Origin: Escherichia phage myPSH2311
Sequence record: MG976803.1
Direction: 5' to 3' (one strand)
DNA length: 64,000 nt
In this document: one piece after another, positions 27,140 to 49,926 of the stretch
Numbering within the stretch: position 1 is the first letter of the stretch
Layout: each line of letters starts with the position of its first letter
The notes under the pieces: model-generated
The model's input: only the letters and a program-made list of their open reading frames with translations
Database searches by the model: none
Told to the model about the DNA's origin: nothing
Program-made: the position numbers and the translations under genes

Positions 27140-27982
27140 ATGGAAGATAAGGGCATATCTAGAGAGGATGCTGAAGCATTTGCTGGTTCCTATATGGATA
27201 ACCGTTATGCACTTCTTGAGAAGCCTATGACTCCTACTGAACATCAGAATGCTCGTTCTCGTATCGAAGCTGATGTTGAGAAGTTTGCTAAGAAGTACGA
27301 ATCAATGACTCCTATCGAGAAAGAGATTGTTAAGGTTACTGGAGATACTGAAGGTAAGCTTGATAACTTGGATGCGGATACTAGGAAGGCTATTGAGGAG
27401 GCTCAGAAGGTTGACTCTGATATTAAGAAACTGCAAGAGGAAGAGTTGGAGATGGAGAAGATTCGTTCTGCTCTGCCTGATGATGAAAGATCTCAAGCAA
27501 ATTCTGATATCTTGGAAAGCATTAAACAACAGGAAGAGGTCTTTGCTGATAAAGTAGAGAAAGCTTTCTTGAGTGGGAAGAGCTTGGATGAGTTGGCTAG
27601 TGTGGCTGAAGTTTTAGACAGGGTTCATGGTGCAGATAAGGCTGGTAACAACCGTCGCTTTGTACGTGCATTGCAGACTGCTGCTGAAAACAAGAAGAAG
27701 TATGGTGATAATCCAGTAGCTTGGTTTAGTGCTGATGATTACTCTGCCATTGCTAAACTTGGTGCTTCTTCCGCAGGTGGTAACAAATCCAGAGCACTGG
27801 AGAAGATCTTTGGTTCTACAGCTGAACAGGCTAAGAGTAAGTTGCTTGGTAGGGATGATGTAGCGAAGATGAGACGTGTGATTGAAGAGAACCCTGATAT
27901 CAAGATTCCTTCTTACAAGACAGGTCAGGTTTCCAGTCCCAGTCAATGGGCATGCATGGTCCAAAATCGGCCCCTAGGGTAA
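27140..27982 (+). CDS. internal virion protein, truncated by insert
   Basis: track ORF 27113-27982; native-looking reading frame runs to 27922, last 20 codons derive from the filler. Confidence 0.45.
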   Translation: MEDKGISREDAEAFAGSYMDNRYALLEKPMTPTEHQNARSRIEADVEKFAKKYESMTPIEKEIVKVTGDTEGKLDNLDADTRKAIEEAQKVDSDIKKLQEEELEMEKIRSALPDDERSQANSDILESIKQQEEVFADKVEKAFLSGKSLDELASVAEVLDRVHGADKAGNNRRFVRALQTAAENKKKYGDNPVAWFSADDYSAIAKLGASSAGGNKSRALEKIFGSTAEQAKSKLLGRDDVAKMRRVIEENPDIKIPSYKTGQVSSPSQWACMVQNRPLG

Positions 27983-28022: not shown

Positions 28023-28247
28023 TTGCTTGGTAGGGATGATGTAGCGAAGATGAGACGTGTGATTGAAGAGAACCCTGATATCAAGATTCCTTCTTACAAG
28101 ACAACAAATCGTACTGAGTACTTGCAGTTCTTGGAGAAGTTTAATGACGAAGGGAAGCCTAAGATTAAACGTGGCTCATTGTCAGAGAAGCTTGAACGCA
28201 GTAAGCGTCAATCGAGACTCCGTGTAAGAGTTCGACCTAAGGAGTGA
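28023..28247 (+). CDS. internal virion protein, C-terminal remainder
   Basis: 74 aa; its first 27 codons repeat the duplicated segment of the upstream ORF. Confidence 0.45.
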   Translation: MLGRDDVAKMRRVIEENPDIKIPSYKTTNRTEYLQFLEKFNDEGKPKIKRGSLSEKLERSKRQSRLRVRVRPKE

Positions 28248-30940: not shown

Positions 30941-32182
<1,242 letters not shown>

Positions 32183-32474: not shown

Positions 32475-33221
32475 TCAGAAAGGCGAATCGTTATCATCTT
32501 CATAAGTAGAAGCAGGCTCTTTATCAATCGTAGGAATTGAAGGAGTAGCTTCTTTCTGTTCTGTTTCAGAAGCACGAGTAATTTCACGACCAGCCAGAGG
32601 CATGTTCTTAGCGTCATTAGCTTGAGTAAGCAGATTGCGCTGGAACGGGAACATCAGTTGATAAGATGCTACGTTCTCGTCGGTTTCAGCATACGGTTCG
32701 AAGAATACCAGAGGACTACGAGCTTCACCAACTGCTGCACGATATTTAGTTGGGATTGGAGAAATGGTCTTGATGGAGTTTTTAACTTCACCAGCTTTGT
32801 TAGTGTAAGAGTTAACCAGAATGTTAACAGGCTGACCTAACAGAACATCCTTGAACCAAGACAGATCACCTTTCAGTGCTTGAATACTTGGGTCAACCAT
32901 CTTGCAAAGATCAAGAATACCAGAGTTCTTAGCTCGTGGGTTTACATCATAGCTCTTGAACTGGCAAGCCGGACGTGGTTCTAATGCCTTACCATCGGAA
33001 TCTTTACCAGTAGCATCAACACCAATCAGCTCGAAAGCTAAATCCATACGGAAAGCCGGATTCTTAGGAGTTACTGCTTTGGTCTTCGGGTCAATCCAAG
33101 GGTCACGATTGTGAACACCCAAACCTACTACACGAACGATACGTGCTTCGTATTCACCATCAGGGATTACATCGTAGTTGGATTTACGGGAAGAAGTTGC
33201 GATAGTTGGAATCATAGACAT
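32475..33221 (-). CDS. single-stranded DNA-binding protein (T7 gp2.5-like)
   Basis: 248 aa; acidic C-terminal tail ending in Phe (TYEDDNDSPF); RBS AAGGAAAT. Confidence 0.45.
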   Translation of the reverse strand: MSMIPTIATSSRKSNYDVIPDGEYEARIVRVVGLGVHNRDPWIDPKTKAVTPKNPAFRMDLAFELIGVDATGKDSDGKALEPRPACQFKSYDVNPRAKNSGILDLCKMVDPSIQALKGDLSWFKDVLLGQPVNILVNSYTNKAGEVKNSIKTISPIPTKYRAAVGEARSPLVFFEPYAETDENVASYQLMFPFQRNLLTQANDAKNMPLAGREITRASETEQKEATPSIPTIDKEPASTYEDDNDSPF

Positions 33222-33783
33222 AGTGTAATTTCCTTATTTAATTTGAAAGATTGTTGCTCTCTTTGAGCGGTTATGTATAATATACATTACATATATAGTG
33301 TAGGAACTACCGGAAGGTAGTAGGTTTTGTCCAAACAAAAGTCTCTTTAGAATTATTTGTTGGAGATTGTCTCTTATAAACCCGAGACTGCCTAGCAGTT
33401 ACATAAGCTCTAGCTTTTTCTGTAGCTGCATACTTATGGTTAAATTTCATGGTAGTATATCTCTAAGTGCTATAATGTATATAAGTTATAGCTGATAAAG
33501 TTATTGCACGGGACTGACGACGATAAGGCGCAGACGACAATCTCTCATAAGTTTGTAAGAAATTGAGAGACTACCGGAAGGGCAGGAGCCACCTGCGAGA
33601 TAAAAATAGAGAATTAAGGAATCCTTGATTTAGGTTGTAGGGACTCCTAGGGACTTTGATTCTCTATTTAAAAGAATATTAATTACTTATTACCTAAATA
33701 ATTAACTAACTTACTTAAACCAAATTCAATAAGAATAGATAAAAAGATTATTCCTAAGAAAGCTAAAAAGTAAAGGATATAAG
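33222..33783. promoter_or_regulatory. AT-rich 560-bp non-coding region with repeated motif
   Basis: no ORF over 50 aa with SD; ACTACCGGAAGG occurs twice; extended -10-like TGCTATAAT. Confidence 0.4.
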
Positions 33784-34032
33784 TTACCATTCAAGTAAAC
33801 CTTTAAAGTTAGATTTTTCTACTATCCTCTGATAACGAAGATTAGAATCAGCTTGTTTCTTTAACATCTCATTATACTGATCTCTGATAGAGTCTTTATG
33901 TACTACAGGTTCTTTAAATAACGAGATCTTGTTCTTTTCTTCTTTCATCAAAGACCTTCCTAATCTCTTGCAGAGAAACAGCTTTATAGTTAATTTGCTC
34001 CATTGATGTACAGAAATATCTCCAATCATCAA
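33784..34032 (-). CDS. hypothetical protein
   Basis: 82 aa ORF overlapping the 3-prime end of the phosphoesterase ORF; start uncertain. Confidence 0.3.
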   Translation of the reverse strand: MMIGDISVHQWSKLTIKLFLCKRLGRSLMKEEKNKISLFKEPVVHKDSIRDQYNEMLKKQADSNLRYQRIVEKSNFKGLLEW

Positions 34033-36139: not shown

Positions 36140-36295
36140 AGTTCAGCAAGTTCTAAATAAAACTCAGCTTCATCAGGACGTCCTTGTTCATTACAGATGG
36201 CGCTCTGACGATAACACCAATCCGATGGCATCTCTTCCACTTCAATCTCCTTGTTACGAACCAATCAATAAGAATAGTTCATTCATCTTATTTAT

Positions 36296-44034: not shown

Positions 44035-44237
44035 TATTATCCATTACCTGCTGGGTAATTACGATGCAGTTTAGGCATGGTAATGCGTTTAGGCGTCTTG
44101 GGGAGGTGCCCCCAGTTGCAAGCTGATGCTGCGGGTAAATTGGCGCCATGGGAAACGCGTTAATGCGTGCCTGATGTTATCTTTTCTCATGTGTTGCTCA
44201 AGATCCCAAACAACATGAATAGCCCACATCTTTTTCA

Positions 44238-44447
44238 TTAGTAATGTACCTTTCCGCTGATATAAACACGACCAGAAGAATACTCCTTGGCCTTATGGAT
44301 GCTGATACTATTAACCACGTCACCAGTAAGCATAGTCTTTTTAAAATCTCGAGCTTGTTGACGAGTAGGGAGTGCAGTCATAGTCATACCACCTGATGCC
44401 CACTTAATCTTCGCTAACCAGAATTTTCTCATAGTGATTGGTCTCAT
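44238..44447 (-). CDS. hypothetical protein
   Basis: 69 aa ORF. Confidence 0.35.
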   Translation of the reverse strand: MRPITMRKFWLAKIKWASGGMTMTALPTRQQARDFKKTMLTGDVVNSISIHKAKEYSSGRVYISGKVHY

Positions 44448-44847: not shown

Positions 44848-45381
44848 TTACACACCCTTAGATGCAACTACACCTTCAGAGTTATTATAACGACCCTTCA
44901 CTGCATAGGAGTGTTCCCCTGCATGAGAGTGCTCAAACATGACCATCTGACCAACACGCATACCAGCACGAACTCGTAAGCTATGATGCTTGGTTACGTT
45001 ATGGAATTCAAATGTCAGCTTACTACTATTAAATCCTGCATCTGCCCAACCGGCGTGAAGGTGGTTCAAACCACAACGAGCCATAGACGAACGCAGAACA
45101 AACAGACTTGAGATGTTATCTGGAAGATTAAACTCCTCCATAGAGTGAGCCAAGAAGAACTGACCCGGAGTGATAACCAAACCCTCTTCAGGAATCTTTA
45201 CTTCCTTCCACTGAAGATTCTCTTTCGCATCAATATCAACGATGCCATCAGCCTGTTCTTCAACAAGGATAGTATCGCCAATACGAATATCCACACTAGC
45301 AGCGTTAACATACTTATGCTCCGCATCCAGATAGCCATTGTCAATTACATCATGCAGTTCAACACTTCCTAGTAAACTCAT
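44848..45381 (-). CDS. dCTP deaminase / dUTPase-family protein
   Basis: 177 aa; VLRSSMARCGL and GWADAGF motifs; RBS AAGGAG. Confidence 0.6.
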   Translation of the reverse strand: MSLLGSVELHDVIDNGYLDAEHKYVNAASVDIRIGDTILVEEQADGIVDIDAKENLQWKEVKIPEEGLVITPGQFFLAHSMEEFNLPDNISSLFVLRSSMARCGLNHLHAGWADAGFNSSKLTFEFHNVTKHHSLRVRAGMRVGQMVMFEHSHAGEHSYAVKGRYNNSEGVVASKGV

Positions 45382-45498
45382 TCTTGCTCCTTAGTTATTT
45401 GTTTCCATTTAAGCGTGCATATTTTGGCTAATTTTTGGCGTAAAAGTTTTCGCCCAGTGCCTGATTGAACCGGGTCGTAATTATTGCCCGGGTAGTGT

Positions 45499-45591
45499 TT
45501 AAAATGGCGAGGAATTAACAGCTGAGTGTGGTGCATCAATAACACCATCATCAATTAATTTATGTAACTCTGGACTTCCTAGTAAACTCAT
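45499..45591 (-). pseudogene. diverged duplicate of the dCTP deaminase 5-prime end
   Basis: encodes MSLLGSPELHKLIDDGVIDA then runs into filler; compare MSLLGSVELHDVIDNGYLDA of the intact gene. Confidence 0.55.
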
Positions 45592-45600
45592 TCTTATTCC

Positions 45601-45978
45601 TTAGTTATTTGTTTCCATGTCAAAAGAGATTCCACGACCCGCTTCATCGGCAAACCGAACTGTACGGGTTTGAGGTTCTAATACTTCAGGGTTGTTAGCA
45701 ATAAAGCGATCAGCGAGACTATCTCCCAAATCTTGTTCCATACCTTCATCAGTCCAGATAACACGAGAAGGGGCGTTGATATCACCAACAGCGAAACCCT
45801 GACCAGAGAACTGACGTGCGCTAACAGTTAAGCCGTTTGGTCGACCACGAGAGGGTCTAGCCATCCATCGCTCCATAGAATCACTTGTAATACCAAGAGC
45901 TTCTTCAAAAGATGTTCTACGAGTAGGGCTTTCTCTTCGTGACTCTTGTGCTCGACGCATTGCAGGGGCTACAAACAC
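45601..45978 (-). CDS. hypothetical protein
   Basis: 125 aa; N-terminal codons may derive from the upstream filler. Confidence 0.4.
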   Translation of the reverse strand: MFVAPAMRRAQESRRESPTRRTSFEEALGITSDSMERWMARPSRGRPNGLTVSARQFSGQGFAVGDINAPSRVIWTDEGMEQDLGDSLADRFIANNPEVLEPQTRTVRFADEAGRGISFDMETNN

Positions 45979-49302: not shown

Positions 49303-49515
49303 TTAAATACTTGGCTTCAAGTCTCCGAAGAGCCATGTGGCAATTTTATCTTGTTCTTCGTCGATATGATAAATCCAAGCGATAACAGTTTCACCTGAGT
49401 CCATCTTAACAGCAATCTGAGTACGCTGATAGAAGCTGTCTTCAGGGCTACGTTTGTTGTAACCTTCCAGACGGTCATACGGACCTTCCAGACCTGCTTT
49501 GTCAGTAGCAAACAC
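49303..49515 (-). CDS. AIG2/gamma-glutamyl-cyclotransferase-like protein, C-terminal part
   Basis: continues the 49627-49926 ORF once the filler and 110-bp duplication are removed. Confidence 0.45.
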   Translation of the reverse strand: MFATDKAGLEGPYDRLEGYNKRSPEDSFYQRTQIAVKMDSGETVIAWIYHIDEEQDKIATWLFGDLKPSI

Positions 49516-49606
49516 TTCTACACGAACAGGCTTGTTGTTATTGCTGTGTGCGAGAGAGATGCTCGGGAAGTAGGAACCACCGTAACGGAACAGATCAAAG
49601 TTGTCT

Positions 49607-49706: not shown

Positions 49707-49926
49707 CTTTGTCAGTAGCAAACACTTCTACACGAACAGGCTTGTTGTTATTGCTGTGTGCGAGAGAGATGCTCGGGAAGTAGGAACCACCGTAACGGAA
49801 CAGATCAAAGTTGTCTTCAGTCCAACCTTCACCAATTGACTTAGCACCAGCTCGGTCATTAACTAAATAGTTAGCTTGACCACGACGAAGAGAACCATAA
49901 GTTGCTACGTAAATTACTTCTGACAT
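49627..49926 (-). CDS. AIG2/gamma-glutamyl-cyclotransferase-like protein, N-terminal part
   Basis: N-terminal VATYGSLRRGQAN matches the YGSL/YGTL motif of the GGCT/AIG2 fold. Confidence 0.5.
   Translation of the reverse strand: MSEVIYVATYGSLRRGQANYLVNDRAGAKSIGEGWTEDNFDLFRYGGSYFPSISLAHSNNNKPVRVEVFATDKDKTRLLATRTGKSPRHLTGKCTGQGL

What the first reader, a model, noticed from the sequence alone, without database searches (positions are those of the whole stretch)
33222..33783. AT-rich 560-bp gene-free region with repeated ACTACCGGAAGG motif
This is the largest non-coding gap in the early module. It contains a 12-mer repeated about 260 bp apart and an extended -10-like element, so it may hold an origin of replication, strong promoters or a non-coding RNA.
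Basis: seen in the sequence. Interest (0 to 1): 0.45.

Follow-up and report, generated by a model that had tools for sequence, protein, structure and literature searches.

The report
Divergent phage-sigma promoters plus candidate small RNA
The gap is the promoter hub between genes 40 and 41 of a phiEco32-like coliphage: it holds a known phage-sigma promoter, two small genes, and a conserved, apparently undescribed promoter on the opposite strand that probably makes a structured non-coding RNA, while the repeated 12-mer itself is incidental.

Summary
The window is a Kuravirus (phiEco32-like) genome, 100% identical here to phage myPSH1131. The 12-mer, its 264-bp spacing, the low G+C (33%) and the extended -10 (TGCTATAAT, 33468-33476, + strand) are all real.

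The region is not gene-free. It holds a clade-specific 47-aa ORF under purifying selection and the 35-aa gene-41 peptide. The 12-mer repeat looks incidental. Copy 1 is the last codons and stop of the 47-aa ORF, overlapping a promoter -35 element. The repeat is inexact or absent in relatives, and this window has about ten other such close 12-13-mer pairs.

What matters is a pair of divergent promoters for the phage sigma factor gp36, both GGTAGT-N17-AATGTATA:
- The leftward one is the published middle promoter P40.
- The rightward one (predicted start about 33488) is absent from the published promoter lists I could read. It has no ORF, and its -35 box is intact in all 16 distinct promoter versions from 22 related loci; the AATGTA core in 15 of them.

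The rightward transcript would begin with a hairpin that shows compensatory changes and G-U pairs. It runs through a swappable central domain (two types) into a 105-nt block more conserved than the flanking genes.

Best reading: a 160-190-nt phage-sigma-dependent non-coding or antisense RNA. A replication-primer role is not excluded. No transcript data exist.

The parts
33274..33311 (-). Leftward gp36-dependent middle promoter, homologue of phiEco32 P40 / SU10 'between CDS37 and CDS38'. GGTAGT is at 33311..33306 (-37..-32), TAATGTATA at 33289..33281 (AATGTA = -14..-9), and the predicted start is about 33274.
   Evidence: Exact consensus site. Same sequence as the SU10 promoter listed at 36247. 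P40 is listed in Table S3 of PMC8948821. -37G and -34A are required by gp36 (PMC12276001). Register computed.
33222..33273 (-). 5' UTR of the gene-40 homologue (248 aa, 32475-33221), with a small hairpin GCUC-AAAGA-GAGC (33256-33268) and an AAGGA Shine-Dalgarno sequence.
   Evidence: Fold (-5.2 kcal/mol). Conserved in all relatives. Gene 40 = PHROG 6599, function unknown; one record names it ssDNA-binding protein.
33307..33450 (-). 47-aa basic ORF (MKFNHKYAATEKARAYVTARQSRVYKRQSPTNNSKETFVWTKPTTFR) carried on an ES17-clade-specific insertion (about 33290-33450) between the two promoters.
   Evidence: The insertion is found in only 7 phage records. The protein is unchanged in L012 and L013 despite about 7 nucleotide changes within the ORF; L014 has one substitution (P43S) and L004 has a 2-nt frameshift. 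Only 2 protein clusters in 5.8 billion. No Pfam or PHROG match.
33306..33321 (.). First copy of the 12-mer (33306-33317) inside the hairpin ACTACC-GGAA-GGTAGT. On the minus strand it encodes T-F-R-stop of the 47-aa ORF and supplies the GGTAGT -35 box of P40.
   Evidence: The + strand fold is -8.3 kcal/mol and is followed by TTTTG (terminator-like). There is nothing upstream on the + strand for it to terminate.
33451..33487 (+). Rightward orphan promoter. GGTAGT is at 33451-33456 (-37..-32) and TAATGTATATA at 33473-33483 (AATGTA = -14..-9). It is overlapped by a sigma-70 extended -10, TGCTATAAT, at 33468-33476. Predicted start about 33488.
   Evidence: Exact consensus. Same layout as the validated P68 of SU10/phiEco32, TTGGTAGTAGATAT-N11-AATGTATATA. 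The -35 box TGGTAGTA is invariant and the AATGTA core is intact in 15 of 16 distinct versions (L011 has AATATA), while the spacer varies freely at constant length. Present in all 22 loci examined; the surrounding region is present in all 98 phage records. Not in the published promoter lists I could read.
33488..33504 (+). 5'-terminal hairpin of the predicted rightward transcript (AUAGCU-GAUAA-AGUUAU).
   Evidence: 100% of cells paired in 16 distinct sequences. Two pairs show compensatory changes (C-G/U-A/A-U and U-A/G-C). One pair is G-U in 8 sequences and G-C in 8. 0 of 500 shuffles reach the covariation score. In this window it folds only on the + strand: -2.9 against 0 kcal/mol.
33505..33581 (+). 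Central domain of the predicted RNA, 'type A'. In 87 phage records it is replaced by an unrelated shorter 'type B'. It contains the second 12-mer copy (33570-33581), which is predicted to pair with CGG at 33509-33511 and to end the UCUCUCA/UGAGAGA stem.
   Evidence: One compensatory U-A to C-G change in the CUG...CAG stem of type A. The closing helices do not vary, so they are untested.
33582..33596 (+). Conserved hairpin GCAGG-AGCCA-CCTGC. The only variation is C/A in the loop.
33604..33669 (.). Long A+T-rich hairpin with 14-16-bp outer stem. The apical part contains two direct TAGGGACT repeats 10 bp apart. On the minus strand it is followed by UUUUUAUCUC, which is terminator-like for the upstream leftward operon. 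On the + strand it is followed by UUUAAAAG.
   Evidence: inverted repeat I3; + strand -23.5, - strand -18.2 kcal/mol. G-U pairs extend the stem only on the + strand. It was not called by the simple terminator scan. The block 33572-33675 is 92-98% identical in lineages whose flanking genes are 79-87% identical.
33683..33790 (-). Gene-41 homologue: a 35-aa hydrophobic peptide (MVTYILYFLAFLGIIFLSILIEFGLSKLVNYLGNK).
   Evidence: PHROG 24970, E 6e-26. Annotated in SU10, MN05, SGF2 and EP335. Replaced by an unrelated 26-aa hydrophobic ORF, or absent, in other lineages.

Best explanation
The interval is the gene-40/gene-41 intergenic control region of a phiEco32-like phage. It holds two divergent promoters for the phage sigma factor gp36. 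They lie back-to-back in phiEco32 and SU10; in this clade an inserted 47-aa gene separates them.

The leftward promoter is the known middle promoter P40, which drives gene 40 and the genes downstream of it.

The rightward promoter has no ORF. I infer that it makes a structured non-coding RNA of about 185 nt (about 160 nt in the type-B phages). That RNA starts near 33488 with a stabilising 5' hairpin. It then runs through an exchangeable central domain and a conserved GCAGG hairpin. It meets the leftward operon at the long hairpin 33604-33669, which would act as a shared, imperfectly bidirectional terminator or processing site.

As a convergent RNA it would be antisense to the 3' end of the upstream operon, and to any read-through transcripts entering the gene-40 unit. 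That would insulate or process these transcripts once gp36 appears.

Shown: the sequence elements, their conservation, the covariation of the 5' hairpin, and the strand asymmetry of folding. Inferred: that the promoter fires, where the RNA ends, and what the RNA does.

The ACTACCGGAAGG repeat is a by-product. Copy 1 is coding sequence plus the -35 box of P40. Copy 2 is part of the predicted RNA.
For: - Identity of the phage: (100% myPSH1131, 99.9% ES17, genus Kuravirus).
- gp36 promoter rules: consensus tAATGTAtA with the start 6-8 nt downstream (PMC8948821). AATGTA sits at -14..-9, and -37G and -34A are essential (PMC12276001).
- The window has only four exact TAATGTATA sites, against 0.63 expected. 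Only two sites match GGTAGT-N17-AATGTATA exactly, and both are in this interval, on opposite strands.
- The leftward site is SU10's listed promoter between CDS37 and CDS38, equivalent to phiEco32 P40.
- The rightward site has the same layout as the validated P68. The -35 box is invariant and the AATGTA core is intact in 15 of 16 distinct versions, while the spacer varies at fixed length.
- The region is present in all 98 phage records, as type A (11) or type B (87).
- 5' hairpin: 100% paired, with compensatory changes and G-U pairs that would be A-C on the other strand.
- The consensus fold is more stable on the + strand: -36.6 against -28.0 (type B) and -48.5 against -40.5 kcal/mol (type A).
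- The non-coding block 33572-33675 is more conserved than the neighbouring genes.
- No + strand ORF of 30 aa or more lies downstream of the start.
Against: - No transcript, 5'-end or 3'-end data exist for any kuravirus in the literature I could search.
- Pavlova 2012 and Savalia 2008 could not be read, so the rightward promoter may have been seen and dismissed there.
- The + strand tail after the long hairpin (UUUAAAAG) is a poor terminator, and no convincing + strand terminator follows. The RNA may therefore be a long antisense transcript rather than a discrete small RNA.
- Covariation is limited to the 5' hairpin and one other pair. The rest is too conserved to test.
- One stem (33533-33545 with 33562-33574) extends to 13 bp through G-U pairs only on the minus strand.
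- No target was found by complementarity in the window (27 hits of 10 nt or more; I estimate about 22 by chance), and there was no match in E. coli genomes.
- One metagenomic variant (L011) has AATATA at the core.
Confidence: 0.55

Rival explanations
1. Replication origin with transcriptional priming. The rightward gp36 promoter makes a primer RNA that forms an R-loop over the purine-rich segment (GGAAGGGCAGGAG...) and the following A+T-rich block. Leading-strand synthesis starts there, as at T4 oriF/oriG (middle promoter plus unwinding element) or the T7 primary origin (promoters 1.1A/1.1B plus an A+T-rich region).
For: - An orphan middle-class promoter without an ORF, placed next to the replication gene cluster.
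- A 105-nt non-coding block conserved beyond the flanking genes, loops included. This suits a DNA-level or protein-binding site better than a plain terminator.
- Two direct TAGGGACT repeats one helical turn apart.
- Low G+C of 0.30 at 33604-33682.
- A weak local GC-skew excursion at 32.5-34 kb.
Against: - No iteron array and no global skew switch here. The main switch is near 28-28.5 kb, at the late/middle boundary.
- The covarying 5' hairpin with G-U pairs points to a requirement at the RNA level.
- No origin has been mapped in any kuravirus.
- The T4 and T7 analogies come from my own knowledge and were not tested here.
Confidence: 0.17
2. There is no functional rightward RNA. The conserved block is only the terminator or RNase III processing hairpin of the leftward operon plus the upstream region of P40. 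The rightward consensus is then a passive or merely interfering promoter, for example a sink for gp36 holoenzyme or a source of transcriptional interference against read-through.
For: - The hairpin is followed by five U on the minus strand, directly after gene 41 or the phosphoesterase gene.
- P40 needs an insulated start.
- The published studies list only six gp36 promoters.
- The minus strand also folds well (z -3.7).
Against: - Both boxes are conserved against a freely varying spacer.
- Compensatory changes occur in a hairpin that folds only on the + strand and starts at the predicted +1.
- The + strand folds are 6-8 kcal/mol better.
- A simple terminator does not explain near-invariance of the loops.
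Confidence: 0.2
3. The rightward RNA is the antitoxin-like partner of the small hydrophobic gene-41 peptide. This would be a convergent type I toxin-antitoxin-like pair, with the RNAs overlapping at their 3' ends as in bsrG/SR4 or txpA/RatA.
For: - A 35-aa hydrophobic peptide, or an alternative 26-aa one, sits immediately beyond the shared hairpin and is convergent with the predicted RNA.
Against: - The promoter and the RNA block are fully conserved in ECBP2 and Bas86-88, which have no peptide gene in that slot.
- Toxicity of the peptide is unknown.
- The analogy comes from my own knowledge.
Confidence: 0.05
4. The two ACTACCGGAAGG copies are a functional pair, either binding sites for a protein or the scar of the insertion event.
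For: - An exact 12-mer appears twice within 264 bp, and only 1 of 100 whole-window shuffles gives two matches.
- Copy 1 lies 16 bp inside the left end of the clade-specific insertion.
Against: - About ten comparable close 12-13-mer pairs occur elsewhere in the window.
- Copy 1 is absent from 91 of 98 phage records and mutated in L012-L014.
- Copy 2 differs in 87 records.
- The flanks of the two copies share nothing.
- The copies do not bracket the insertion: 264 bp between copies against a length difference of about 146 bp from SU10.
Confidence: 0.03

Closest known systems
phiEco32 gp36-dependent middle and late promoters (P6, P13, P26, P40, P58, P68; Pavlova 2012, as cited in PMC8948821 and PMC4281155; structure in PMC12276001)
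   Same: The leftward site is the P40 homologue. The rightward site has the identical core TAATGTATA, the same -37G/-34A box (GGTAGT) and the same spacing as P68.
   Different: The rightward site points against the whole middle/early gene cluster, precedes no ORF, and is absent from the published lists I could read. In this phage it also overlaps a perfect sigma-70 extended -10.
Lambda OOP RNA and P22 sar RNA (short antisense RNAs from promoters facing an operon)
   Same: A short untranslated RNA from a promoter that opposes the surrounding transcription, in an intergenic spot of the regulatory/replication region. It converges on the 3' end of an upstream gene.
   Different: No sequence relation. 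Here the promoter depends on a phage sigma factor. The predicted RNA is longer (160-190 nt) and has an exchangeable central domain. The overlap with a coding region is unproven. The comparison rests on my own knowledge.
T4 oriF/oriG and the T7 primary origin (promoter-primed phage origins)
   Same: A phage-specific middle or class-II promoter followed by an A+T-rich stretch in the replication-gene neighbourhood.
   Different: No mapping data. The transcript here starts with a conserved, covarying hairpin and crosses a G+C-richer structured domain (G+C 0.47) before the A+T-rich part.
Bidirectional intrinsic terminators between convergent transcription units
   Same: A single hairpin flanked by an A-tract and a U-tract, placed between convergent units.
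   Different: The stem is A+T-rich with a large structured apical part. The U-tract is good on one side only. The simple scan did not call it.
Rfam RT-8 RNA (RF03029)
   Same: A weak match at 33251-33330 on the + strand, sharing GGAACUACCG.AA.
   Different: 20.8 bits against a gathering score of 87, E 1.7. It spans the gene-40 UTR on the wrong strand plus clade-specific coding sequence. I treat it as chance.

Membership tests
gp36 (phiEco32 sigma) promoters: leftward site 33274-33311 | Core tAATGTAtA with AATGTA at -14..-9 | tested here: met
   TAATGTATA at 33289..33281, exact.
gp36 (phiEco32 sigma) promoters: leftward site 33274-33311 | Orthology to an experimentally mapped promoter (P40) | tested here: met
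   From the core downstream the sequence matches SU10's listed promoter at all but one base and sits in front of the gene-40 homologue.
gp36 (phiEco32 sigma) promoters: rightward site 33451-33487 | Core tAATGTAtA with AATGTA at -14..-9 | tested here: met
   TAATGTATA at 33473-33481, exact. Intact in 15 of 16 distinct versions.
gp36 (phiEco32 sigma) promoters: rightward site 33451-33487 | -37G and -34A contacted by the gp36 C-terminal domain | tested here: met
   G33451 and A33454 in GGTAGT. TGGTAGTA is invariant in all versions, and the box and spacing match P68.
gp36 (phiEco32 sigma) promoters: rightward site 33451-33487 | Located in front of a middle or late gene | tested here: not met
   No + strand ORF of 30 aa or more downstream. 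All neighbouring genes are on the minus strand.
gp36 (phiEco32 sigma) promoters: rightward site 33451-33487 | Transcription by gp36 holoenzyme in vitro or in vivo | not testable with these tools
   No transcript data found.
Structured non-coding RNA | Base pairs maintained by compensatory substitutions | tested here: inconclusive
   Clear for the 5-bp 5' hairpin and for one pair in type A. The other helices do not vary.
Structured non-coding RNA | Membership of a described RNA family | tested here: not met
   Rfam 15 with permissive thresholds gave only chance-level hits. No tRNA or tmRNA.
Intrinsic terminator (hairpin 33604-33669) | Stable stem directly followed by a U-tract | tested here: inconclusive
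   Minus strand: 11-bp A+T-rich stem, then UUUUUAUCUC with part of the U-run inside the stem. + strand: UUUAAAAG. Not called by the scan.
Phage replication origin | Iterons or initiator sites, an unwinding element, and a skew switch or mapped initiation | tested here: not met
   Only two 8-nt direct repeats. No repeat array. No global skew switch.

The most novel reading that the evidence does not exclude
All phiEco32-like phages (three genera, 98 records) encode a previously unlisted small RNA driven by the phage sigma factor. It has a conserved 5' hairpin and 3' domain and a recombining, two-allele central cassette. It either primes DNA replication or acts as a regulatory or anti-host RNA whose specificity is set by the cassette.
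Probability: 0.3. Interest if true: 0.6.

Novelty: new member of a known kind. Interest (0 to 1): 0.4.

Why it matters
phiEco32 is a model for phage-encoded sigma factors and for the dual regulator gp79. Its transcription map lists six gp36 promoters, all in front of genes. A seventh that is perfectly conserved, gene-less and pointed against the operon flow would add a non-coding output to that programme. It would also give a concrete candidate for two unknowns in this phage group: how the gene-40 operon is insulated from upstream transcription, and where replication starts. Kuraviruses are being developed for therapy (ES17, myPSH1131), so unannotated conserved elements matter for genome engineering. 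The repeat that prompted the finding is not itself important.

Tried and rejected
- Rfam scan with a permissive threshold: only chance-level hits, the best being RT-8 at E 1.7.
- tRNA/tmRNA scan: none.
- Sigma-70 promoter and terminator scan: no enrichment over shuffles. The only terminator-like call is the copy-1 hairpin on the + strand, which has nothing to terminate.
- Search for targets of the predicted RNA by perfect complementarity of 10 nt or more in the window: 27 hits, none longer than 12 nt; I estimate about 22 by chance.
- blastn of the RNA against 5,426 E. coli genomes: no match.
- Scan of 185,579 bacterial and archaeal genomes and of IMG/VR for the GCAGG-hairpin box: found only in kuravirus contigs.
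- A more distant gene-40 relative (L009, 69% identity) has an unrelated upstream region, so the comparison could not be extended beyond this phage group.
- GC skew: no origin-like switch.
- The idea that the 12-mer copies flank the insertion as a duplication: rejected, because the spacing does not fit and the flanks are unrelated.
- A second gp36-type promoter downstream of copy 2 on the minus strand: rejected. The sequence is ACTTAT where AATGTA would be needed (read).
- Pavlova 2012 and Savalia 2008 are not held in the library.

Full report
**What the window is.** The 1-kb stretch around the finding is 100% identical to Escherichia phage myPSH1131 and 99.9% identical to ES17. It matches 98 phage records, all phiEco32-like podoviruses. 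ES17 is classified in Kuravirus, subfamily Gordonclarkvirinae. All genes around the interval lie on the minus strand. To the left is the 248-aa gene-40 homologue (32475-33221; PHROG 6599, function unknown; one record calls it an ssDNA-binding protein). The phage sigma factor gene, the gp36 homologue, lies at 31278-31922. To the right are a phosphoesterase gene and, further on, the DNA polymerase gene. By homology to phiEco32 and SU10 this is the middle-gene module, not the early one (PMC4281155).

**Checking the observation.** ACTACCGGAAGG occurs exactly twice, at 33306 and 33570, 264 bp apart. The interval has 32.9% G+C against 42.5% for the window. TGCTATAAT, a textbook extended -10, sits at 33468-33476 on the + strand.

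Two parts of the description do not hold.

- The interval is not gene-free. A 47-aa ORF (33307-33450, minus strand) keeps an identical protein in L012 and L013 despite about 7 nucleotide changes within the ORF, all synonymous. L014 has one substitution and L004 a 2-nt frameshift. This argues for purifying selection. The 35-aa hydrophobic gene-41 homologue (33683-33790) matches PHROG 24970 at E 6e-26.
- The repeat is not unusual for this genome. The window contains 16 direct-repeat pairs of 12 nt or more within 300 bp, about ten of them plain 12-13-mers, against 1.6 in Markov simulations.

The repeat is also not conserved. Copy 1 lies in an insertion found in only 7 phage records and reads ACTACCGAAAGG in three metagenomic relatives. 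Copy 2 reads GTACCGAAGG in phiEco32, SU10 and most others.

**What is really there: two divergent phage-sigma promoters.** Promoters used by the phiEco32 sigma factor gp36 have the single consensus tAATGTAtA, with the start 6-8 nt downstream (PMC8948821). A 2025 cryo-EM study places AATGTA at -14 to -9 and shows that -37G and -34A, contacted by the gp36 C-terminal domain, are essential (PMC12276001).

The window has four exact TAATGTATA sites, against 0.63 expected. Two are late promoters on the + strand (8651 and 23778). The other two are in this interval, on opposite strands. Put in register, they are the only sites in 64 kb that match GGTAGT-N17-AATGTATA without mismatch.

- Leftward promoter: GGTAGT 33311..33306, AATGTA 33288..33283, predicted start about 33274. 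From the core downstream it matches, at all but one base, the promoter that the SU10 paper lists between CDS37 and CDS38. It corresponds to P40 of phiEco32, one of the six published gp36 promoters. This part is already known.
- Rightward promoter: GGTAGT 33451-33456, AATGTA 33474-33479, predicted start about 33488. It points against the whole gene cluster and precedes no ORF. It is in neither published list I could read. Its layout matches the validated middle promoter P68, which in SU10 reads TTGGTAGTAGATAT-N11-AATGTATATA.

**Conservation of the rightward promoter.** I collected the region from 22 distinct loci: INPHARED phages of three genera (Kuravirus, Nieuwekanaalvirus, Suseptimavirus), IMG/VR contigs and metagenome contigs. 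These give 16 distinct versions of the promoter. TGGTAGTA (the -35 box) is invariant. The AATGTA core is intact in 15 of 16 versions, the exception being AATATA in L011. The 14-nt spacer between the boxes differs freely but keeps its length. That is the usual footprint of a working promoter.

blastn shows the region in all 98 records: 11 carry the window's version of the downstream sequence ('type A') and 87 carry an alternative ('type B'). Most records annotate nothing there.

**The predicted rightward transcript.** It would begin with the hairpin AUAGCU-GAUAA-AGUUAU (33488-33504). Over the 16 distinct sequences every cell of its five inner pairs is a standard pair.

- One position shows C-G, U-A and A-U.
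- Another shows U-A and G-C.
- A third is G-U in eight sequences and G-C in eight.
- No shuffle out of 500 reaches the observed covariation score, and slid controls collapse.

The G-U pair would be an A-C mismatch on the other strand. In this window the hairpin folds only on the + strand, at -2.9 against 0 kcal/mol.

After the hairpin comes a central domain of about 80 nt (type A) or 55 nt (type B). The two types are unrelated in sequence, but both are bounded by AUUGCA on the left and ACCG(G)AAGG on the right. ECBP2 and Bas88 share identical promoter regions yet carry different types, so the cassette moves by recombination.

Next come an invariant hairpin, GCAGG-AGCCA-CCTGC (33582-33596; the only change is in the loop), and a long hairpin (33604-33669). 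Consensus folds are more stable on the + strand than on the - strand: -36.6 against -28.0 kcal/mol for type B, and -48.5 against -40.5 for type A. On the minus strand the 5' hairpin disappears from the consensus.

The block 33572-33675 is 92-98% identical in lineages whose flanking genes are only 79-87% identical. It is therefore under tighter constraint than the neighbouring coding sequence.

**The long hairpin.** On the minus strand it directly follows gene 41, or the phosphoesterase gene in phages that lack gene 41. It is followed by UUUUUAUCUC, so it looks like the terminator or processing site of the leftward operon. On the + strand the tail is UUUAAAAG. The simple terminator scan did not call it in either direction, and no convincing + strand terminator follows. 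If it works in both directions, the rightward RNA is about 185 nt here and about 160 nt in type-B phages. If it does not, the RNA continues as antisense to gene 41 and the phosphoesterase gene.

**Where the 12-mer fits.**
- Copy 1, read on the minus strand, is CC-TTC-CGG-TAG-T. That is the last codons (Thr-Phe-Arg) and stop codon of the 47-aa ORF. Its GGTAGT is the -35 box of P40 in this clade. phiEco32 and SU10, which lack the insertion, have AGTACT in that place.
- Copy 2 lies in the predicted RNA. It ends the UCUCUCA/UGAGAGA stem, and its CCG is predicted to pair with CGG at 33509-33511 to close the central domain. Those pairs do not vary, so they are untested.
- The two copies share no flanking similarity and do not bracket the insertion.

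I conclude the repeat is incidental.

**Mechanism and rivals.** My best reading (confidence 0.55) is a control region with back-to-back divergent gp36 promoters. The rightward one makes a structured non-coding RNA that converges on the upstream operon. The nearest functional analogues are short phage antisense RNAs such as lambda OOP and P22 sar; this comparison comes from my own knowledge.

- A replication-primer role, as at T4 oriF/oriG or the T7 primary origin, remains possible (0.17). The block is conserved beyond what a terminator needs and has two TAGGGACT repeats one helical turn apart. However, there are no iterons, no global GC-skew switch and no published origin mapping.
- A null model (0.2) has the block as only a leftward terminator or processing site and the rightward promoter as passive. 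This is hard to reconcile with the covarying, strand-specific hairpin at the predicted +1.
- A type I toxin-antitoxin-like pairing with the gene-41 peptide is unlikely (0.05). The RNA region is intact in phages without that gene.

**Limits.**
- No transcript or origin data exist for this phage group in the searchable literature.
- The two primary phiEco32 papers could not be read.
- Rfam, tRNA, target and host-similarity searches were all negative.
- The claim of novelty for the rightward promoter therefore rests on its absence from two later promoter tables, not on a complete reading of the literature.

**Verdict.** One (non-coding RNA) is plausible and newly supported by comparative evidence. 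One (origin) is unsupported but not excluded. Interest is moderate.

Noticed in passing
window 27842-27922 / 28023-28103; 45364-45408 / 45574-45618; 49497-49606 / 49707-49816: Longer exact direct repeats at short spacing: 81 nt at spacing 181, 22+21 nt at spacing 210, and 110 nt at spacing 210. They may be tandem duplications within or between genes.
   Followed up: no
window 44038-44171 (minus strand): The region that carries the validated middle promoter P68 in SU10/phiEco32 is replaced here. SU10 matches only 44053-44071 and 44172-44300. The nearest core-like site is TAATGGATA at 44046..44038. No exact P58 or P68 homologue was found in the window.
   Followed up: partly
window 33683-33790; L004, L011, L022; L007, L023-L026: The gene-41 slot behaves as a cassette. 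It holds a 35-aa hydrophobic peptide here, an unrelated 26-aa hydrophobic peptide (MSIYKKFL...) in some relatives, and nothing in ECBP2 and Bas86-88.
   Followed up: partly
L011 (metagenome contig ERZ1034915 NODE-75), rightward promoter: A natural variant has AATATA instead of AATGTA (-11 G to A), a position that the cryo-EM study reports as contacted by gp36. It may be a natural knock-down of the rightward promoter.
   Followed up: no
L004 / L019 (IMG/VR UViG 3300045988_017452): A 2-nt deletion frameshifts the 47-aa ORF in an otherwise near-identical phage. This is either a pseudogene or an assembly error.
   Followed up: no
window 60051-61312: A 1.26-kb stretch on the leftward cluster with only 43-44-aa ORFs. 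It is larger than the gap under study and probably corresponds to the early-promoter region described for SU10 between CDS120 and CDS121.
   Followed up: no
window 32500-34000: GC skew turns weakly positive (+0.03 to +0.06) inside a cluster that is otherwise at -0.1 to -0.2. The cumulative skew does not turn.
   Followed up: no
window 33270-33290: The P40 core lies in a near-palindrome (GTTATGTATA/TATACATTAC). This gives a one-mismatch core, TTATGTATA, on the + strand at 33271-33279. It is not conserved in ECBP2.
   Followed up: partly
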